A program made the translations under genes and the position numbers. Positions 56,679-64,000 of a stretch of 64,000 nucleotides of DNA are shown one piece after another. The stretch's first letter is position 1; each line of letters starts with the position of its first letter. The notes below the pieces were generated by a model. It was not told where the DNA came from and made no database searches. It saw only the letters and a list, made by a program, of their open reading frames with translations. The stretch comes from a virus (Duplodnaviria > Caudoviricetes), in the IMG/VR virus record IMGVR_UViG_3300027804_002812, positions 96,001 to 160,000 of that record, one strand, 5' to 3'.

Positions 56679-56720
56679 AAATATAAATATTATAAAAACT
56701 TTTTGTATCTAAAGTACCAC

Positions 56721-57606: not shown

Positions 57607-57614
57607 TATAAATA
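57607..57614 (-). promoter_or_regulatory. TATTTATA motif
   Basis: 4 nt upstream of ATG 57602, just after a terminator. Confidence 0.55.
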
Positions 57615-57624
57615 TCCACAGAAT

Positions 57625-57663
57625 AAAAAAAAATCCCCACCTTTTGAGTGGGGATTTTTTTTT
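57625..57663. terminator. bidirectional-type intrinsic terminator
   Basis: AAAAAATCCCCAC-cttttga-GTGGGGATTTTTT. Confidence 0.85.
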
Positions 57664-58033
57664 ACTTTAGTTTTTTGAGTTGGTCTCGAATCTCGATTGA
57701 TTTTTCAAAATTTTGTTCTTCGATTGACTTTTTAAGTTCCTCTTCAAGTTTATCGATTTCCTTTTGGTTTGATTCCAACTTTTTAATTTGGTCTCTCAAT
57801 TCAACCGCTTTTTCAAAATCCTCATTTTCAATTGCGATTTCAAGTTGTTGTTTCAGATTTTTTGAAGTTGGGTTTGTTTTAGTGTTGTCGTAGTAATACG
57901 TAGTTATTTTCATTGTTCCATCTTCTGAAACTTTAGTTTGAGTTTTCCACTCACCGTTAGATGGGGTTAATTGATTGAACATTTCGTCGAATGTTCTAAA
58001 GATGTCGTTATAAGATCTTCTGTTACCAAACAT
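57662..58033 (-). CDS. tandem UVR (UvrB/UvrC motif) protein, McsA-like adaptor candidate
   Basis: LKQQLEIAIENEDFEKAVELRDQIKKLE and LEEELKKSIEEQNFEKSIEIRDQLKKLK. Confidence 0.85.
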   Translation of the reverse strand: MFGNRRSYNDIFRTFDEMFNQLTPSNGEWKTQTKVSEDGTMKITTYYYDNTKTNPTSKNLKQQLEIAIENEDFEKAVELRDQIKKLESNQKEIDKLEEELKKSIEEQNFEKSIEIRDQLKKLK

Positions 58034-58212: not shown

Positions 58213-60225
58213 ATGAACGACTTAATGGACGACGAAGACAAAATGATGAGTAAAAAACAGAAGTCAGGAGATACCTCGACACCTGTTCTAGACAATTTCA
58301 GTAGAGATTTGAATAAACTTGCAGAGGCGGGTAAGTTGGACCCTGTCATCGGAAGAGACCGAGAGATTCTACGAATCGCACAAATTCTTTCCCGAAGAAA
58401 GAAAAATAATCCAATTATTCTTGGTGAACCTGGTTGTGGTAAAACTGCAATTGTTGAAGGTTTGGCGATGAAAATTGTCAATGGTGATTGTCCTCGTAAT
58501 CTTTTGGATAAAAGATTGGTTAACCTTGACCTAACTTCAGTTGTTGCTGGTACAAAGTATCGTGGACAATTTGAAGAAAGAATGAAGGTTATCATCGAAG
58601 AACTTCAGGCTAATCCTAACATCATCGTATTCATTGATGAAATTCATACTTTGGTTGGCTCAGGTAATTCTTCAGGTTCGATGGATGGTTCCAACATTTT
58701 CAAACCAGCACTATCTCGTGGTGAACTACAAGTAATCGGTGCAACCACTTTGGATGAGTTCAGAAAGAACATCGAAAAAGATGGGGCATTGGAACGTAGA
58801 TTCCAAAAAGTTATTGTTGACCCATCTACAGTGACTGAGACAATCCAAATTTTGAAGAATGTTCGGGACAAATACGAAACATATCACAAAGTGACTTATT
58901 CCGATGAAGTCATTGAAACTTGTGTTAAGTTGGCGGATAGATATATCACCGACCGTGAATTCCCTGACAAAGCATTCGACATCTTGGATGAAGTTGGTGC
59001 TAGAATGCAGACCGAACTTAAGGTTCCTGAGGCTATCGAAGAGTTGAAGCGTAAAGCTGCAGAACTTAAACAACAGAAGTTGGATGTAGTTAAAAAACAG
59101 AATTACGAACAAGCCGCACAACTCAGAGACAAAGAGAAAAAGTTGTTGGACAAATTGGACCAAGAAAAACAAAAATTCGAGGAACAAATGTCCAAAGACA
59201 AACAAAAGGTCGGAATGGATGATGTTTATGATGTTGTTTCAAACATGACTAAAATCCCTGTTAACAAAATGTCTACGGATGATACCAAAGCGTTGTTGAA
59301 CTTGGACAAACACATTGTTGGAACTGTCATTGGTCAGGATGCCGCGGTTATCAAGGTTGCAAAATCTATCAAGAGAAACCGACTAGGTATCAAAGATCCA
59401 AATCGTCCGATTGGTTCATTCGTTTTCTTGGGTTCAACAGGTGTTGGTAAAACTCACTTAGCAAAACAACTTGCAAAGGAAATGTTTGGAAGTGAGGACG
59501 CGCTAATCCGTGTGGATATGTCTGAGTACCAAGAGAAACATACCGTATCCAAATTGGTTGGAGCACCTCCAGGCTATGTTGGATACGAAGAAGGTGGATT
59601 GTTGACTGAGAAAGTTAAGAACAAGCCTTACTCTGTTATCTTGTTTGATGAGGTTGAGAAAGCTCACAAAGATGTATTCACCGTATTACTTCAAATCTTG
59701 GACGATGGTCACGTTACGGATAGTTTGGGTAGAAAGATTAACTTCAAGAATACCCTAATTATCTTAACATCAAATCTCGGAGTTAAAAAACTACAAGACT
59801 TCGGAACTGGTATTGGATTCTCATCAAGTACCTATGGTAACGAAGAGGCGAAGAAAGAAATCTTGATGAAAGAAATGAAGAATTTCTTTTCTCCTGAGTT
59901 TATCAACCGTATCGATGACACCATTGTTTTCAATTCTCTATCTCAAGAGGATATCAAGAAAATCACCGACATCGAACTTAAGAAGTTGATGAAGCGTCTT
60001 GACGAAATGAAGTATAAGATTACTTATGATGAATCACTTTTGAATTACCTCTCAAAAATCGGATATGATGAGGTATACGGTGCAAGACCACTCAAGAGAG
60101 CGATTCAGGATAAAGTTGAAGACTTATTATCTGAAGAAGTTCTGACCGACAAAATTATAGTAGGAAAAACCTACGTGATTAAAGTCGAAGATGAAGTAGT
60201 CAAAGTAGTCAAGAAAGGTCGGTAA
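58213..60225 (+). CDS. clpC: ClpC-type AAA+ ATPase lacking the N-terminal Clp-repeat domain
   Basis: [24 protein letters not shown]-type M domain, [30 protein letters not shown] ClpP-docking loop, YGARPL. Confidence 0.92.
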
Positions 60226-60256: not shown

Positions 60257-60264
60257 TATTTATA
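60257..60264 (+). promoter_or_regulatory. TATTTATA motif
   Basis: 3 nt upstream of ATG 60268, just after the clpC terminator. Confidence 0.55.
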
Positions 60265-60267
60265 GAC

Positions 60268-60876
60268 ATGAGTAATTTTTCCCGACTATTAGACAAATTC
60301 AAAAATTCATTCCCAAAAGACTTACAATCAAAAGTTGATGTAATTGAAAATTTTGTTGTGGGATATATTCAAGAAAATGACCTCAATGTAAAGTTCTTGA
60401 ATTCATGTTCCGCAGGGTTCAAAGGAGTTAGGACAAGAGACCAAATTATTATTTGTTCTCCAATCAGTATGGAAACCATAGGAGACTTTTTATATACCAT
60501 ATTTCACGAAATCAGGCATGAGCAACAGATTAGAGATTTGAAAATGTTAAATCCTTTAACGGATTTTGATTTAGAGGATTTCGAGGCTCTTTACGAACAA
60601 TACTGGAATATGGAGTTGGATGCCGATAAATTCGCAAAAGAAATGGTGGCAAAACTGGTAATCAAATTGGGGATTCCAATCGATATTGCAAAAAAATTAT
60701 TTTCGTTGTCACCATACGTTCAGCAATATCCAACCATGTCAAACATGGTTCGTGGAGGTATTCAACAAATTATTAATGACATTAAGAGAATAAAAAAATC
60801 GGGTGGAGAATATACTGATATTCAAGACCACCCGGTAGTACAAAGACACATCGATAAGTTAGAGGATTTTATTTAA
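60268..60876 (+). CDS. putative zincin metallopeptidase (HExxH)
   Basis: TIFHEIRHEQQ and downstream ELDADKFA (ImmA/IrrE-like pattern). Confidence 0.6.
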   Translation: MSNFSRLLDKFKNSFPKDLQSKVDVIENFVVGYIQENDLNVKFLNSCSAGFKGVRTRDQIIICSPISMETIGDFLYTIFHEIRHEQQIRDLKMLNPLTDFDLEDFEALYEQYWNMELDADKFAKEMVAKLVIKLGIPIDIAKKLFSLSPYVQQYPTMSNMVRGGIQQIINDIKRIKKSGGEYTDIQDHPVVQRHIDKLEDFI

Positions 60877-61508
60877 TCTATCAACTTCAATATTATCGTA
60901 TAAAAAGTTGATTTACCTTCCCACCCGTAAGAATCATAATCGACTGATTCAACTGAAAAATGTTGATTAGATAACACACGAATATCTTCTTCGGTTACAC
61001 CATCGCAGTTTTCAATTAATACAATTTTCCCATTTGGGTTTAGGTATCTATGTACAGATTCGAAAAACTTTTTATGAAATTGCATGTCATAGTCCAAAGA
61101 GATTAATTTTTCTTCACTACTTCTATAACCATTAGGTCTTTCAGTTTTGAAATGTGGGGGGTTTGATACGATAGTGTCAAACTTATTGGAGTCCTCCATT
61201 GAATCAAAACAATCGGACTGAATAAACTCAACTTTCAGATTATTAAATCGATTTGTTGTTTCTATACTATCTCGAACCTCGGGATTAATATCTGACAAAA
61301 CTAATCTATTTGCTTTATTATATTTCAATAAAGTGTAACCGATGAATCCAGGCCCTGAACATATTTCCAATACGTCCCCTTGGTCTTGAATTTTATTTAT
61401 AATATCGGATTTGGTAATGGCATTAAATCCAAAAGTAGTGCCACCTCCGTCAAACCTTTTTTCGTAGAATACTGAAAGATCGATGATATTGAATAATTCC
61501 ATAATCAA
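60873..61508 (-). CDS. class I SAM methyltransferase (HemK/MTS-like, NPPH)
   Basis: VLEICSGPGFIG, LSDINP, SDCF, DTIVSNPPHF. Confidence 0.8.
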   Translation of the reverse strand: MIMELFNIIDLSVFYEKRFDGGGTTFGFNAITKSDIINKIQDQGDVLEICSGPGFIGYTLLKYNKANRLVLSDINPEVRDSIETTNRFNNLKVEFIQSDCFDSMEDSNKFDTIVSNPPHFKTERPNGYRSSEEKLISLDYDMQFHKKFFESVHRYLNPNGKIVLIENCDGVTEEDIRVLSNQHFSVESVDYDSYGWEGKSTFYTIILKLID

Positions 61509-62338
61509 AAGGGATGAAATTGTCCTCTTGGCACCGACTTTTTGAAATGTAATTTATACCCTAACTCGTCAATCATTTTTCTTCCCATTTCTATCCCATT
61601 GAATACGTCCTCAATAACGACATATTCTTCTGGCGTATGATAATCATAATATCCAATAGAAAAATTAATACAAGAAAAATCAAATTTACTTCTCAAGGCA
61701 TAAACGTCTGTATATGGGTGAACCATATATTGCATTTGTTCATTAATCATTCCTTCAGTCAAAACCTTATCAATTTTTTCGAAGAACTCGGTACCTCTGT
61801 CAAATAACATCTGTCCAAAACATTTTTCAGTAATCATCCAATTTTCGGGGGCATCGAACTGAATACCATATCCAACATTTTCAAAAAATTTGGAATCGGC
61901 AGCTTTTGAGCCATGACATCCAGTTTCTTCTGAAACGAAGAATGCCGCTTTAAGGTATGGTAATTCTTTAAGTAAAGTTAAACAGGCAAACACACCACAT
62001 TTGTCGTCTCCTCCAATGCCTGTCGGTCTCTCGTTATCATTAAATGCTTTCAATGCTGGCTTCAATTCACCTTGGGCATTTTTCAACATCATTTCTTTTA
62101 CGTTGATTGTATCGATATGGTGAACTGTATCTGTATGTGATATTACACAAGGAAAATAAAAATCTTCAGGAAGGTCTGTTGTTCCTTGTTTGGTTGCATA
62201 GATATTCATTGTGTCATCGACATAATGTTCTATATTGTTTTCGGTTAACCAATTAACCAAAAATTCAACCATACGATGTTCTTGGTAAGTTTTTGTGGGT
62301 ACGCTCAGAACTTCTTTGAGCAAAGTTATATCTTTCAT
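61505..62338 (-). CDS. M28/M20/M42-type Zn peptidase
   Basis: SHTDTV, GGDDKCG, SEETGCHGS, QFDA, YHTPEE metal-ligand motifs. Confidence 0.8.
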   Translation of the reverse strand: MKDITLLKEVLSVPTKTYQEHRMVEFLVNWLTENNIEHYVDDTMNIYATKQGTTDLPEDFYFPCVISHTDTVHHIDTINVKEMMLKNAQGELKPALKAFNDNERPTGIGGDDKCGVFACLTLLKELPYLKAAFFVSEETGCHGSKAADSKFFENVGYGIQFDAPENWMITEKCFGQMLFDRGTEFFEKIDKVLTEGMINEQMQYMVHPYTDVYALRSKFDFSCINFSIGYYDYHTPEEYVVIEDVFNGIEMGRKMIDELGYKLHFKKSVPRGQFHPF

Positions 62339-62358: not shown

Positions 62359-63402
62359 TTAGATTTCATCCAAACTAAATAATGAAGGTTGGTATAATAA
62401 ATTGTAAAAATTTTGTTCACTTAAAGATACTGTCTTTTGTTTTAATCCTTTCGACAATGTCACTATTATTTTCATTTCAGGAAACTTAAATCCTTCAATT
62501 TTGAACCTTATTTCTTTTTTGGGGTCTTTTGGTAAAAAGTAATATTCTTCTTGTCTAAATTTTTTCAAAATTCTCGAAGTCATATCAGTGAAATCTTTGA
62601 AACTAACTCCCTCTTCTTCTCCCTCTTCTTGAATCGTATCCAAAATTTCAGTAAAAATTGTGTTTGCGACTCTGTTGAAGCCTAAAGAGTCAAACTCATT
62701 GGGGTCTTCATAAGCATAATAATCTTCTTCCCAACCGCCTGGTGCTTCTTTTCTACTAAAAATCCTTTCTAATAATTCTTTCAAAGAAATATGGAGTTCA
62801 CCTTCTTCAATATACAACGCTATCAAGTCTGCTACCGTAATTCTGAAACCTTCACTATATGCGTCAATACCCAACTCAGCAAAATACTCATCCATTTCTT
62901 TATTTATCTCTCTTGCAAGTGATGTCTTGAATGCATGATTTTTTTCGTCTACGTAATCTTCAATAACGTATTTTATTTTTTTTCCGAAATTTTCCATTAA
63001 TTTTTCAGATAACTCCTTTCTGTATTCGTCATCTTCAAAGTTGACTTTCATAGGAAGTATGGCGTTGGAAATTTCAGACAATAGCTCCTTATTTTCTTCG
63101 TCCAAAGTGTAGTAAAACCCATACCCCACCATAAAATCTTCTACTGCGGAATAGTGATCCAAAAATTCATACTCAGAATAAGGTGCATTCACCATTTGAT
63201 AAAACCAAACATCATCATCCCGCATTCCCAACATTTCTAAAAAATCTTGTTGATTGCGAAATTCAACATCAATAACACTCTGACCAGGCGTACTTCTGTC
63301 TTCTCTCATGTACGAGAATAGCTTATCAGAGGCTAAAAGTTCATCTTTGGTTATTTTGTGTTTAGCGTAATTTCTTAATGACCTGAAAGTTTCATAATTC
63401 AT
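62359..63402 (-). CDS. hypothetical acidic phage protein
   Basis: 347-aa ORF from ATG 63402 (MNYETF), with TATTTAT 7 nt upstream. Confidence 0.75.
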   Translation of the reverse strand: MNYETFRSLRNYAKHKITKDELLASDKLFSYMREDRSTPGQSVIDVEFRNQQDFLEMLGMRDDDVWFYQMVNAPYSEYEFLDHYSAVEDFMVGYGFYYTLDEENKELLSEISNAILPMKVNFEDDEYRKELSEKLMENFGKKIKYVIEDYVDEKNHAFKTSLAREINKEMDEYFAELGIDAYSEGFRITVADLIALYIEEGELHISLKELLERIFSRKEAPGGWEEDYYAYEDPNEFDSLGFNRVANTIFTEILDTIQEEGEEEGVSFKDFTDMTSRILKKFRQEEYYFLPKDPKKEIRFKIEGFKFPEMKIIVTLSKGLKQKTVSLSEQNFYNLLYQPSLFSLDEI

Positions 63403-63438
63403 ACTACAAATAAATATCAATTTAGTTGGATTCGGAAA

Positions 63439-63446
63439 TATTTATA
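63439..63446 (+). promoter_or_regulatory. TATTTATA motif
   Basis: Upstream of the tmRNA, a non-coding gene. Confidence 0.55.
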
Positions 63447-63448
63447 CT

Positions 63449-63456
63449 TACATTTG
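63449..63456 (+). promoter_or_regulatory. Bacteroidota-type -7 element (TACATTTG) for tmRNA
   Basis: TAnnTTTG 9 nt before the mature 5' end, with a TTG element ~19 nt upstream. Confidence 0.55.
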
Positions 63457-63465
63457 TACAACAAT

Positions 63466-63882
63466 GGGGGTGAAATAGAATTGATTAACGTTTGTATAAT
63501 CAATGGGCACGTAGTCAGAATTCATCTATGACTTGAATCTACGGTGAAGAAAGTAAACGGCAATACTCTTGCTAAGATGTCTGCTTTAGGTTTAACTAGA
63601 GAAGCATCTGTTGTAACTGCTTAAGAAGTAGATACAACGTCAGGTCGAATGGGCATATAACCTAGGAACAGAAGCCCTCCAAGGTGTGATACCACCCGAA
63701 GCGTATCAAAAGGTCACGTTCAGAGGACTACCTTAGTAAAAGTGAACTCGACACAGTTGTTGGTAACGATGTCAAAATAGGAACCATCTATTTCGGAAGG
63801 TATCACAAACCTTGGCCTAAACGTGTAGTCCATTTTTGATATGGCGGGTAAGACTGGGAGGCGGTATCCCACACCTCCACCA
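63466..63882 (+). ncRNA. ssrA: tmRNA (one-piece), tag GNTLAKMSALGLTREASVVTA*
   Basis: Acceptor stem GGGGGTG/CACCTCC with G3:U70, discriminator A and encoded CCA. T-stem TGGGA/TCCCA, helix CACGT/ACGTG, and an internal ORF at 63559-63624 ending in Ala-stop. Confidence 0.9.
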
Positions 63883-63884
63883 TT

Positions 63885-63920
63885 AAATAAAAAAGGGAGT
63901 CATTGACTCCCTTTTTTTTT
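63885..63920. terminator. bidirectional intrinsic terminator after tmRNA
   Basis: AAAAGGGAGTCA-t-TGACTCCCTTTT. Confidence 0.85.
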
Positions 63921-64000
63921 AGTTTCCTTTTGACGGAAATCTTGTCCATCCATTGACCCATATAGGTTTGTCTAATTCCGGTATTACCACGTCAACTTCT
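63919..64000 (-). CDS. 3' end of a gene entering from the right edge (partial)
   Basis: Reads ...EVDVVIPELDKPIWVNGWTRFPSKGN* and converges on the tmRNA terminator. Confidence 0.55.
   Translation of the reverse strand, partial: EVDVVIPELDKPIWVNGWTRFPSKGN

What the first reader, a model, noticed from the sequence alone, without database searches (positions are those of the whole stretch)
63466..63882. Phage tmRNA with non-canonical T-loop (GGCGGUA) and a 21-residue tag ending VVTA
Seen: a 417-nt one-piece tmRNA with an intact Ala identity (G3:U70, A73, CCA). Its T-loop is GGCGGTA rather than TTCRANY. The predicted tag GNTLAKMSALGLTREASVVTA* is about twice the usual length and lacks the standard YALAA/LAA end. 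Both host-type (TACATTTG) and phage-type (TATTTATA) promoter motifs lie upstream. From recall, GGCRGUA T-loops typify alphaproteobacterial tmRNAs, so one in a likely Bacteroidota phage is odd. Inference: an orthogonal tag that redirects or spares rescued proteins, and a T-arm that may evade host anti-phage nucleases or modification enzymes. The resume codon is inferred.
Basis: partly seen in the sequence, partly recalled or inferred. Interest (0 to 1): 0.75.

Follow-up and report, generated by a model that had tools for sequence, protein, structure and literature searches.

The report
Jumbo-phage tmRNA with variant elbow
This is a real, transcribed ribosome-rescue RNA (tmRNA) gene of a 326-kb freshwater giant phage; its build is ordinary, but it has a rare alternative T-loop/D-loop "elbow" otherwise typical of alphaproteobacteria, and a conserved double-length degradation tag unlike the tags of its likely Bacteroidota hosts.

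Summary
Window 63466-63882 (+) is a one-piece tmRNA with a 7-bp acceptor stem, G3:U70, A73, encoded CCA, T-loop GGCGGUA, its own promoter and a terminator. ARAGORN and Rfam's gathering threshold miss it, but RF00023 aligns end to end (38.4 bits). At least 60 related phage contigs carry a homologue downstream of a ClpC-like gene, and 32 of 38 predicted pairs show compensatory changes. Metatranscriptome contigs from four studies cover only the gene, one starting exactly at G1.

The 21-codon tag (GNTLAKMSALGLTREASVVTA) is conserved across the family (21-22 codons) and shows a coding substitution pattern. None of 54 sampled Bacteroidota tmRNAs has this tag or this T-loop.

- The GGCRG loop always comes with a D-loop G-to-A change, as in alphaproteobacterial-type two-piece tmRNAs. 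It is a coherent alternative elbow, not damage.
- It is a minority, swappable module. The closest relatives have an identical tag and a 95-96% identical body but a canonical UUCGA loop.
- The family shares the AACAGAA pseudoknot-loop motif with alpha-type tmRNAs.

The proposed purposes (an orthogonal tag, nuclease evasion) remain untested. First readers of this scan noted the same long-tag phage tmRNA family in other genomes.

The parts
63426..63428 (+). -33-like TTG of a Bacteroidota-type promoter, 20 nt upstream of the -7 element
   Evidence: Read from the sequence. A TTG at this spacing occurs in 32 of 40 family members.
63439..63446 (+). TATTTATA motif (candidate phage promoter element) lying in the spacer of the host-type promoter
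   Evidence: 22 copies in the window against 8.3 expected, with 0 of 100 shuffles reaching 22. Many copies sit just upstream of ATG starts. Function not shown.
63449..63456 (+). -7 element TAcaTTTG (Bacteroidota sigma-A consensus TAnnTTTG, from established knowledge), ending 9 nt before G1
   Evidence: TAnnTTTG lies within 60 nt upstream of G1 in 35 of 40 family members.
63466..63882 (+). One-piece tmRNA (ssrA) gene, 417 nt
   Evidence: RF00023 full-length match at 38.4 bits. Homologues in 63 of 80 ClpC-anchored phage loci. 32 of 38 consensus pairs show compensatory changes. RNA contigs cover only this interval.
63466..63472 (+). Acceptor stem 5' strand GGGGGTG, with G3 of the G3:U70 alanine identity pair
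   Evidence: G:U is present in 40 of 40 aligned members, and stem positions 5-7 covary.
63477..63484 (+). D-loop AGAATTGA: A replaces the first G of the canonical GGNNUYGA
   Evidence: AG in 5 of 5 GGC-loop family members against GG in 31-32 of 35 UUC-loop members. AG in 106 of 110 permuted GGCRGUA tmRNAs. GG in Bacteroidota hosts.
63485..63512 (+). Helix 2, 5' strand (pairs with 63821-63851)
   Evidence: RNAalifold pairs at alignment columns 23-51 with 417-447, with abundant compensatory changes.
63559..63624 (+). Tag reading frame: 21 codons (GNTLAKMSALGLTREASVVTA) plus TAA. The resume codon GGC at 63559 is inferred.
   Evidence: ARAGORN makes the same call in relatives.
63642..63677 (+). 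Pseudoknot after the tag (PK2): stems 63642-63645/63660-63663 and 63651-63654/63674-63677, with AACAGAA in the large loop at 63667-63673
   Evidence: Stems pair in 35-40 of 40 members with GC/AU exchanges. The motif is in 39 of 40 family members, 101 of 110 alpha-type coding pieces and 3 of 54 Bacteroidota hosts.
63821..63851 (+). Helix 2, 3' strand
63855..63871 (+). T-arm: 5-bp stem TGGGA/TCCCA and 7-nt loop GGCGGTA (63860-63866)
   Evidence: Stem pairs covary in the family. Loop types are tabulated.
63872..63882 (+). Acceptor 3' strand CACCTCC, discriminator A73 and encoded CCA
   Evidence: An RNA contig ends at 63879.
63889..63917 (+). Intrinsic terminator (13-pair hairpin followed by a T run)
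   Evidence: Similar hairpins follow the gene in relatives.
58213..60225 (+). Context: phage ClpC-like AAA+ unfoldase without the N-terminal domain but with an IGF ClpP-docking loop (residues 534-536). The tmRNA lies 3.2 kb downstream.
   Evidence: Pfam, NCBIfam and PHROG hits, the IGF loop, and conserved synteny with the tmRNA.

Best explanation
The locus is a functional, phage-encoded, one-piece tmRNA of a 326-kb freshwater jumbo phage whose promoter type points to a Bacteroidota host. It is transcribed from its own promoter to an intrinsic terminator and matured to G1...CCA. The following steps are inferred from family knowledge: host AlaRS charges it with alanine through G3:U70; host SmpB and EF-Tu deliver it to stalled ribosomes, because the phage encodes no SmpB, AlaRS or CCA-adding enzyme; translation resumes at GGC and appends (A)GNTLAKMSALGLTREASVVTA. 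This tag is specific to the phage family, 21-22 residues long, unrelated to the 9-10-residue ...YALAA tags of Bacteroidota, and still ends in a small hydrophobic C-terminus. Its tRNA-like domain uses an alternative elbow. T-loop UUCRA becomes GGCRG (positions 54, 55 and 58), together with D-loop GG becoming AG. By analogy with tRNA, the G18:Psi55 contact becomes A:G55 while G19:C56 is kept. This is the same solution seen in alphaproteobacterial-type two-piece tmRNAs, and it cannot carry the m5U54/Psi55 modifications. In this phage family the elbow variant behaves as an exchangeable TLD/helix-2 module placed on an otherwise unchanged body. The most likely role is to keep ribosomes free during infection and mark the products for proteolysis. 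The phage's own N-domain-less ClpC-ClpP is a plausible but unproven reader of the tag.
For: Gene reality:
- RF00023 matches over its full length at the exact coordinates, with a promoter and terminator.
- Homologues occur in 63 of 80 ClpC-anchored phage loci.
- RNAalifold on 40 unique members gives 38 pairs, 32 with compensatory changes, and G3:U70 in 40 of 40. The PK2 stems covary.

Expression:
- Metatranscriptome contigs from 4 studies cover only 63466-63879 and nothing on about 550 nt of upstream flank or on the downstream flank.
- One contig begins exactly at 63466 and one ends at 63879. Both are identical to the window across the AG D-loop and the GGCGGTA T-loop.

Tag:
- It is conserved across the family at 21-22 codons.
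- Third-position variability is 0.49 against 0.33 and 0.26. The synonymous share is 33% against 19% and 7% in the other frames.
- ARAGORN starts the tag at the same G in 8 of 10 detected relatives.

Not host-like:
- All 54 sampled Bacteroidota tmRNAs have UUC-type loops, GG D-loops and short ...[LM]AA tags.
- The tag pattern was not found in 185,579 species genomes.

Elbow covariation:
- AG goes with GGC in 5 of 5 family members, in 2 of 2 other one-piece cases (L083, L468) and in 106 of 110 permuted cases.

Module swap:
- The body is 95-96% identical to L123, L129 and L122, while both TLD/helix-2 ends are 49-59% identical. The 3' end is 84% identical to L144.

Dependence on the host:
- The complete phage record has no SmpB, AlaRS or CCA-adding enzyme.
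- It has one Clp ATPase with an IGF loop and one ClpP.
Against: - The Rfam score is below the gathering threshold and ARAGORN finds nothing.
- No aminoacylation, SmpB binding or tagged peptide has been shown.
- RNA support for the window's own TLD rests on two low-depth contigs of one run. The deep RNA signal lies in the body shared with canonical relatives.
- The resume codon is inferred. ARAGORN proposes a shorter tag in 2 relatives.
- The A:G55 tertiary contact is an analogy with tRNA, not a structure.
- The host phylum rests on the promoter type and on intron and tag affinities, not on a host genome match.
Confidence: 0.8

Rival explanations
1. Private quality-control loop. The long conserved tag is an orthogonal degron read by the phage's own N-domain-less ClpC-ClpP (perhaps with the neighbouring McsA-like UVR protein) rather than by host ClpXP. 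Rescued products are then degraded, or spared, on the phage's terms.
For: - Internal tag residues (K6, G11-L12, often R-E) are conserved beyond a C-terminal degron.
- The tmRNA is syntenic with a ClpC-like gene carrying an IGF loop in 63 of 80 loci.
- The phage has ClpP, and ClpC is its only Clp ATPase.
- There is a precedent for co-evolution of a tag and a protease: the longer Mesoplasma florum SsrA tag is read by Lon (PMC9382460).
Against: - Synteny among related phages can be inheritance alone.
- The tail ...VV[TA]A resembles ordinary ClpX/ClpA-type hydrophobic ends, so host proteases may read it.
- No binding or degradation data exist.
Confidence: 0.3
2. The GGCRG/AG elbow is an adaptive escape allele rather than a neutral isosteric variant. 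It could make the T-loop refractory to the group I intron that invades UU|C in relatives. It could free the RNA from TrmA/TruB modification, or evade a host factor that targets canonical T-loops.
For: - Relatives L190, L164 and L150 carry group I introns inserted after the UU of the T-loop. Such introns need a U at position -1 (PMC11915505), which the GG loop lacks at that site.
- The variant occurs on at least three different tmRNA bodies and in two acceptor-stem lineages, which suggests repeated spread.
Against: - Only 5 of 40 members carry it, and canonical and variant forms coexist in near-identical phages.
- No nuclease or defence system aimed at tmRNA T-loops was identified here.
- The same elbow is fixed in alpha-type tmRNAs without any known arms race.
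Confidence: 0.2
3. The tag starts further downstream or in another frame, giving a shorter, more conventional tag. ARAGORN calls AEEATVVA-type tags in two relatives.
For: ARAGORN picks an internal start in L133 and L157. The resume codon cannot be read from sequence alone.
Against: - Conservation begins exactly at G-N, while the codon before it is variable and stops lie 3-4 codons upstream in several members.
- Length from G is fixed at 21-22 codons.
- Bacteroidota tags also begin G-E or G-N, including GNTSYALAA and GNTQYAMAA.
- The coding signature covers the whole 21 codons.
Confidence: 0.08
4. The RNA is a decoy or inhibitor of host trans-translation (like the CDS-less mycobacteriophage DS6A tmRNA) or a decaying pseudogene, and its odd T-loop is damage.
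For: - Such a phage form is on record (PMC11915505).
- The Rfam score is below threshold.
Against: - The tag frame is intact, conserved and evolving as coding sequence.
- All helices are kept by compensatory changes.
- The T-loop change is matched by a D-loop change shared with working alpha-type tmRNAs.
- The RNA is present in metatranscriptomes.
Confidence: 0.04

Closest known systems
Standard one-piece tmRNA (SsrA, Rfam RF00023) of Bacteroidota
   Same: One-piece order; 7-bp acceptor with G3:U70; long helix 2; a pseudoknot before the tag and pseudoknots after it; tags beginning G-N or G-E; a TAnnTTTG promoter; frequent absence of encoded CCA in relatives; group I introns at the UU|C T-loop site, reported for class Bacteroidia (PMC11915505).
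   Different: T-loop GGCGGUA and D-loop AG, against UUCGANU and GG in 54 of 54 hosts. The tag is 21 residues ending VVTA, against 9-10 residues ending [LM]AA. AACAGAA sits in the PK2 loop. It scores 38 bits against 93-198 bits for host genes.
Alphaproteobacterial-type two-piece (permuted) tmRNA (Rfam RF01849 / RF04321)
   Same: T-loop GGCRGUA, D-loop AGNNUYGA, and the CCUWGNAACAGAA motif in the large loop of the pseudoknot after the tag.
   Different: The gene is not circularly permuted: the 5' acceptor strand lies 417 nt upstream of CCA, not downstream. PK1 is present. The tag start is G-N, not A-N-D. RF04321 matches only weakly (14 bits).
tmRNAs of huge/jumbo phages and mycobacteriophages (Al-Shayeb et al. 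2020, PMC7162821; tmRNA database, PMC11915505)
   Same: A phage-borne ssrA in a genome rich in translation genes. SmpB is variably co-encoded: one 309-kb relative has it and this phage does not.
   Different: Those surveys relied on ARAGORN, which misses this gene and 30 of 40 family members. The elbow variant, its modular exchange and the conserved long tag are not described in the papers I could search.
Mesoplasma/Mycoplasma SsrA tag read by Lon
   Same: A tag longer than usual with a non-LAA end that co-evolved with a different protease (PMC9382460).
   Different: This is a functional analogy only. No protease partner has been shown here, and the sequences are unrelated.

Membership tests
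tmRNA (SsrA, RF00023) | 7-bp acceptor stem with G3:U70, discriminator A73 and a CCA end | tested here: met
   Read from the sequence. G:U in 40 of 40 relatives and covariation at stem positions 5-7.
tmRNA (SsrA, RF00023) | T-arm with a 5-bp stem and 7-nt loop directly 5' of the acceptor 3' strand | tested here: met
   Stem 63855-63859/63867-63871; all five pairs covary in the family.
tmRNA (SsrA, RF00023) | T-loop consensus U-U-C-R-A-N-Y and D-loop GG | tested here: not met
   The loop is GGCGGUA and the D-loop is AG. The same paired departure occurs in accepted alpha-type tmRNAs, so this is a sub-type feature and does not exclude membership.
tmRNA (SsrA, RF00023) | Long helix 2 joining the 5' and 3' parts | tested here: met
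   Alignment columns 23-51 pair with 417-447, with many double changes.
tmRNA (SsrA, RF00023) | Internal short reading frame ending in a stop codon, encoding a tag with a hydrophobic Ala-rich C-terminus | tested here: met
   Frame of 21-22 codons with a coding signature; 38 of 40 end in Ala; the stop is TAA in 36 of 40. The resume codon is inferred.
tmRNA (SsrA, RF00023) | Pseudoknots flanking the tag frame | tested here: inconclusive
   PK2 is supported by covariation. The Rfam alignment spans all model helices. PK1, PK3 and PK4 were not tested separately.
tmRNA (SsrA, RF00023) | Score at or above Rfam's gathering threshold (47 bits) | tested here: not met
   38.4 bits. Relatives L190 and L083 pass at 67.7 and 63.5 bits.
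tmRNA (SsrA, RF00023) | Alanylation, SmpB binding and trans-translation activity | not testable with these tools
   The phage has no SmpB or AlaRS, so host factors are assumed.
Alphaproteobacterial two-piece tmRNA (RF01849) | Circularly permuted gene with the acceptor/T-arm piece upstream of the coding piece | tested here: not met
   The 5' acceptor strand lies 417 nt upstream of CCA and no downstream partner exists. The 110 permuted controls show the opposite order.
Alphaproteobacterial two-piece tmRNA (RF01849) | Signature sequences: GGCRGUA T-loop and AACAGAA in a pseudoknot loop | tested here: met
   Both are present (63860-63866 and 63667-63673). That these are the signatures comes from recall, checked here on 110 permuted genes.

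The most novel reading that the evidence does not exclude
This jumbo-phage clade runs a semi-private ribosome-rescue and degradation circuit. A phage tmRNA writes a clade-specific 21-22-residue degron that is read by the phage's own N-domain-less ClpC-ClpP. The tRNA-like domain exists as interchangeable elbow alleles (UUCRA/GG or GGCRG/AG) that spread by recombination because they change susceptibility to T-loop-targeting agents: the group I intron seen in relatives, or host nucleases or modification enzymes. The shared GGCRG/AG elbow and the AACAGAA pseudoknot loop would then mark either common descent with, or convergence on, the alphaproteobacterial tmRNA design.
Probability: 0.2. Interest if true: 0.75.

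Novelty: new variant of a known kind. Interest (0 to 1): 0.5.

Why it matters
Phage tmRNAs are known, but their biology is almost untouched. This family adds four things.

1. It is a natural experiment on the tmRNA elbow. Near-isogenic phage genes differ only in the TLD/helix-2 module. The strict T-loop (54, 55, 58) and D-loop covariation, shared with alphaproteobacteria, predicts a specific A:G55 tertiary contact. It also predicts a T-loop that needs no m5U/Psi modification. Both predictions can be tested by mutagenesis, SmpB binding or cryo-EM.

2. It provides a conserved long tag next to a phage ClpC-ClpP. This is a concrete candidate for an orthogonal degron-protease pair and a useful synthetic-biology part if it holds.

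3. It exposes an annotation blind spot. ARAGORN finds 10 of 40 family members and none of the variant-elbow ones, so surveys of phage translation genes under-count tmRNAs.

4. RNA of the family is abundant in freshwater metatranscriptomes, so these RNAs are active in nature.

Tried and rejected
- ARAGORN on the window and on the whole phage genome, Rfam at the gathering threshold, and a genome search scan of the phage's own genome with RF00023 all found no tmRNA. Only the permissive local scan did.
- blastn of the locus against 50,697 deposited phage genomes gave no match. An exact 27-mer of the T-arm found no other viral contig.
- The 22-row tag alignment was too divergent for the search for related loci. 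The 7-row version found 31 pattern hits in bacterial genomes, none confirmed. That pattern covers only the GNT[FL]AK... subgroup.
It returned mostly Bacteroidota records, as their titles show.
- The pattern GGCRGNA-N8-CTCCACCA hit 36 of 401 Bacteroidota genomes. None of the hits has a T-stem, and none lies at the tmRNA gene in the 13 genomes where both coordinates are known. I rejected these as chance.
- The string 'GGCRGUA' occurs in no searchable paper.
- I considered and rejected a host gene on a chimeric contig or a prophage attachment-site remnant: synteny is conserved in phage contigs, the promoter and terminator are intact, and host tmRNAs differ. I also rejected a two-piece gene, because there is no downstream 5' strand.
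- Complex prediction was not used. The tag is shorter than the 30-residue minimum, so tag-ClpC binding could not be assessed.
- RNA contigs left parts of the gene thinly covered and the flanks uncovered. I draw no conclusion about transcript level from this.

Full report
**1. What is at the coordinates.**
The window is bases 96001-160000 of a 326,291-bp IMG/VR virus record, 33.7% G+C, with a CheckV completeness of 100%. At 63466-63882 (+) the sequence shows the following:
- a 7-bp acceptor stem (63466-63472 with 63872-63878) containing G3:U70;
- discriminator A at 63879 and an encoded CCA at 63880-63882;
- a 5-bp T-stem (63855-63859 with 63867-63871) closing the 7-nt loop GGCGGTA.

ARAGORN finds 12 tRNAs elsewhere in the phage but no tmRNA. 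Rfam at its gathering score is silent. A permissive scan aligns RF00023 over all 374 model positions at exactly these coordinates, at 38.4 bits (threshold 47) and E 8e-14. A 13-pair intrinsic terminator follows at 63889-63917. Upstream lies TTG-N20-TAcaTTTG, ending 9 nt before G1, which fits the Bacteroidota promoter consensus known from the literature. TAnnTTTG is present within 60 nt of G1 in 35 of 40 family members.

**2. It is a conserved, structured, transcribed gene.**
A ClpC-like gene lies 3.2 kb upstream and has relatives on at least 598 viral stretches. In 63 of the 80 fetched loci, nhmmer finds a homologue of the RNA a few kb downstream of it. Forty unique full-length sequences were aligned (alignment A3). 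RNAalifold predicts 38 pairs covering the acceptor stem, a long helix 2 and the T-arm. Of these, 32 show compensatory double changes, and G3:U70 is present in all 40. The pseudoknot after the tag also covaries.

DNA of the locus occurs in freshwater and wastewater metagenomes of many studies, and six metatranscriptome runs hold parts of it. I laid RNA contigs from four studies on window 62900-64000. They cover only 63466-63879, with nothing on the upstream coding gene or beyond the terminator. One contig starts exactly at G1 and another ends at A73. Neither shows any difference from the window across the D-loop and T-loop. The deep coverage lies in the central part shared with relatives. Support for this particular allele is thin but real.

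**3. The tag.**
Frame 63559-63621 plus TAA encodes GNTLAKMSALGLTREASVVTA. Every family member has a 21-codon (33 members) or 22-codon (7 members) frame starting at a conserved G-N. K6, G11-L12 and a terminal Ala are invariant or nearly invariant. Codon third positions vary most (0.49 against 0.33 and 0.26). The share of synonymous codon differences is 33%, against 19% and 7% in the other frames. The peptide itself is therefore under selection. In 8 of the 10 relatives that ARAGORN detects, it calls the same start.

Sampled Bacteroidota tmRNAs (144 of 151 genomes have one; 54 were extracted) encode 9-10-residue tags such as GENNYALAA, GNTSYALAA and ANYNYALAA. The phage tag shares only its G-N(-T) start with them. 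No bacterial species genome encodes the tag's first ten residues. The commonest tag length in the tmRNA database is 10 aa (PMC11915505), so 'about twice the usual length' is correct. The end ...VV[TA]A is still small and hydrophobic.

**4. The T-loop is one half of an alternative elbow.**
In the family, 35 of 40 members have UUCRANN loops. Five have GGCRGNN: the window, L144, L146, L177 and L168. All five, and only these, have AG where the others have GG in the D-loop motif GGNNUYGA.

The same pairing holds elsewhere:
- 106 of 110 permuted, alphaproteobacterial-type tmRNAs found with the GGCRGUA pattern in viral contigs;
- two unrelated one-piece tmRNAs, L083 (63.5 bits to RF00023) and L468.

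Bacteroidota hosts are UUC-type in all 54, and 53 of them match the GG D-loop motif. By analogy with the tRNA contacts G18:Psi55 and G19:C56 and the T54:A58 pair, the variant replaces U54:A58 by G:G and G18:Psi55 by A:G, and keeps G19:C56. This is an inference, not a structure. Burks et al. 2005 recorded G replacing U in the T-loops of Caulobacter (one U) and the Reclinomonas mitochondrion (both) (PMC1168896). I found no paper describing the D-loop partner or the variant in one-piece phage tmRNAs, but the library is incomplete.

**5. The elbow is a swappable module, independent of the tag.**
The window's body (63507-63826, including the tag) is 95-96% identical to L123, L129 and L122, whose tags are identical to the window's. 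The upstream promoter is nearly the same as theirs (identical to L122's over the 50 nt compared), and the terminator is close to L122's. By contrast, both ends of the RNA (TLD plus helix 2) are only 49-59% identical to them and most resemble L144 and L146 (84% at the 3' end). L144 and L146 in turn sit on two different bodies, and L177 and L168 use another acceptor stem. So the variant elbow has moved between, or arisen on, several backgrounds.

**6. Other affinities.**
AACAG[AG]A sits in the large loop of the pseudoknot after the tag. It is found in 39 of 40 family members, within a shared CCUWGNAACAGAA context, and in 101 of 110 alpha-type coding pieces, but in only 3 of 54 Bacteroidota tmRNAs. 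The family thus carries, wholly or in part, both sequence signatures I recall for alphaproteobacterial tmRNAs. At the same time it keeps Bacteroidota-like traits: the promoter, a tag starting with G, frequent lack of encoded CCA, and a group I intron at the UU|C subsite that PMC11915505 reports for class Bacteroidia. I cannot tell whether this reflects descent or convergence.

**7. Context and mechanism.**
The complete phage record lacks SmpB, AlaRS and a CCA-adding enzyme, so charging and delivery must use host factors. One 309-kb relative does encode SmpB, and another complete relative does not.

The neighbourhood holds these genes:
- a small UVR-motif, McsA-like protein;
- the ClpC-like unfoldase, which lacks the N-terminal domain, has a ClpC-type UVR middle motif and carries an IGF ClpP-docking loop;
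- a HemK/PrmC-like methyltransferase;
- an M20/M42-type peptidase.

ClpP lies 14 kb further on, and ClpC is the only Clp ATPase. A phage ClpC-ClpP reading the phage tag is attractive and has a precedent in the Mesoplasma SsrA-Lon pair (PMC9382460). Nothing here tests it.

**8. Verdict.**
This is a member of a known class (phage tmRNA; PMC7162821) with a new combination of features: a one-piece gene with the alpha-type elbow, modular exchange of that elbow, and a clade-specific long tag. First readers of this scan flagged long-tag tmRNAs of the same family in several other genomes. Those notes were leads only.

Noticed in passing
L190:13113-13340, L164:13130-13346, L150:12753-12969: Three relatives of this tmRNA carry a group I intron (RF00028 at 72-98 bits, above threshold) inserted in the T-loop right after the two U's. 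This is the subsite that the tmRNA database paper reports only for class Bacteroidia. A GG T-loop lacks the U that such introns need at position -1.
   Followed up: partly
window 63667-63673; alignment A3: AACAGAA within a CCUWGNAACAGAA context in the large loop of the pseudoknot after the tag. It is nearly invariant in the phage family (39 of 40), present in 101 of 110 alpha-type permuted tmRNAs and rare in Bacteroidota tmRNAs (3 of 54).
   Followed up: partly
window 58213-60225 (+) and 57662-58033 (-): The phage ClpC-like unfoldase lacks the N-terminal Clp_N domain but keeps a UVR middle motif and an IGF ClpP-docking loop. Just before it lies a 123-aa protein with two UVR motifs that weakly resembles the McsA C-terminus.
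   Followed up: partly
window 60873-61508 (-) and 61505-62338 (-): A HemK/PrmC-like N5-glutamine methyltransferase (below family cut-offs) and an M20/M42-type peptidase lie between ClpC and the tmRNA. Together they form a possible translation-termination and proteostasis cluster.
   Followed up: no
window, 22 sites, e.g. 60257-60264, 57607-57614, 56682-56689: TATTTATA is enriched (22 copies against 8.3 expected). It often sits 3-30 nt before ATG start codons and after terminators, so it is a candidate phage promoter or leader motif.
   Followed up: partly
L126, L124, L161, L184, L135, L179 and others (3' ends listed): Many family members do not encode the CCA end (ACCT, ACTA, ACTT or ACAA follow the acceptor stem), as in many Bacteroidota tmRNA genes. 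The window's gene encodes CCA.
   Followed up: no
L083:9058-9419 (-) and L468: Two unrelated one-piece tmRNAs in viral contigs also combine a GGCAGUA T-loop with an AG D-loop. L083 is G+C-rich and its tag starts ANDN.
   Followed up: partly
L032 and L041: Two hits to the GGCAGTA T-loop pattern have the matching 5' acceptor strand only 71-81 nt upstream. These are tRNA-sized genes with an alpha-type T-loop.
   Followed up: no
L469 (record of L142, 309 kb): A complete relative of this phage encodes SmpB (161 bits), whereas this phage and another complete relative (the record of L134) do not.
   Followed up: partly
upstream of G1 in most relatives: Most family members have a conserved leader of about 19 nt (...GTTCTTTGAAAATAT) between the -7 element and G1. 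The window's subgroup has only 9 nt.
   Followed up: no
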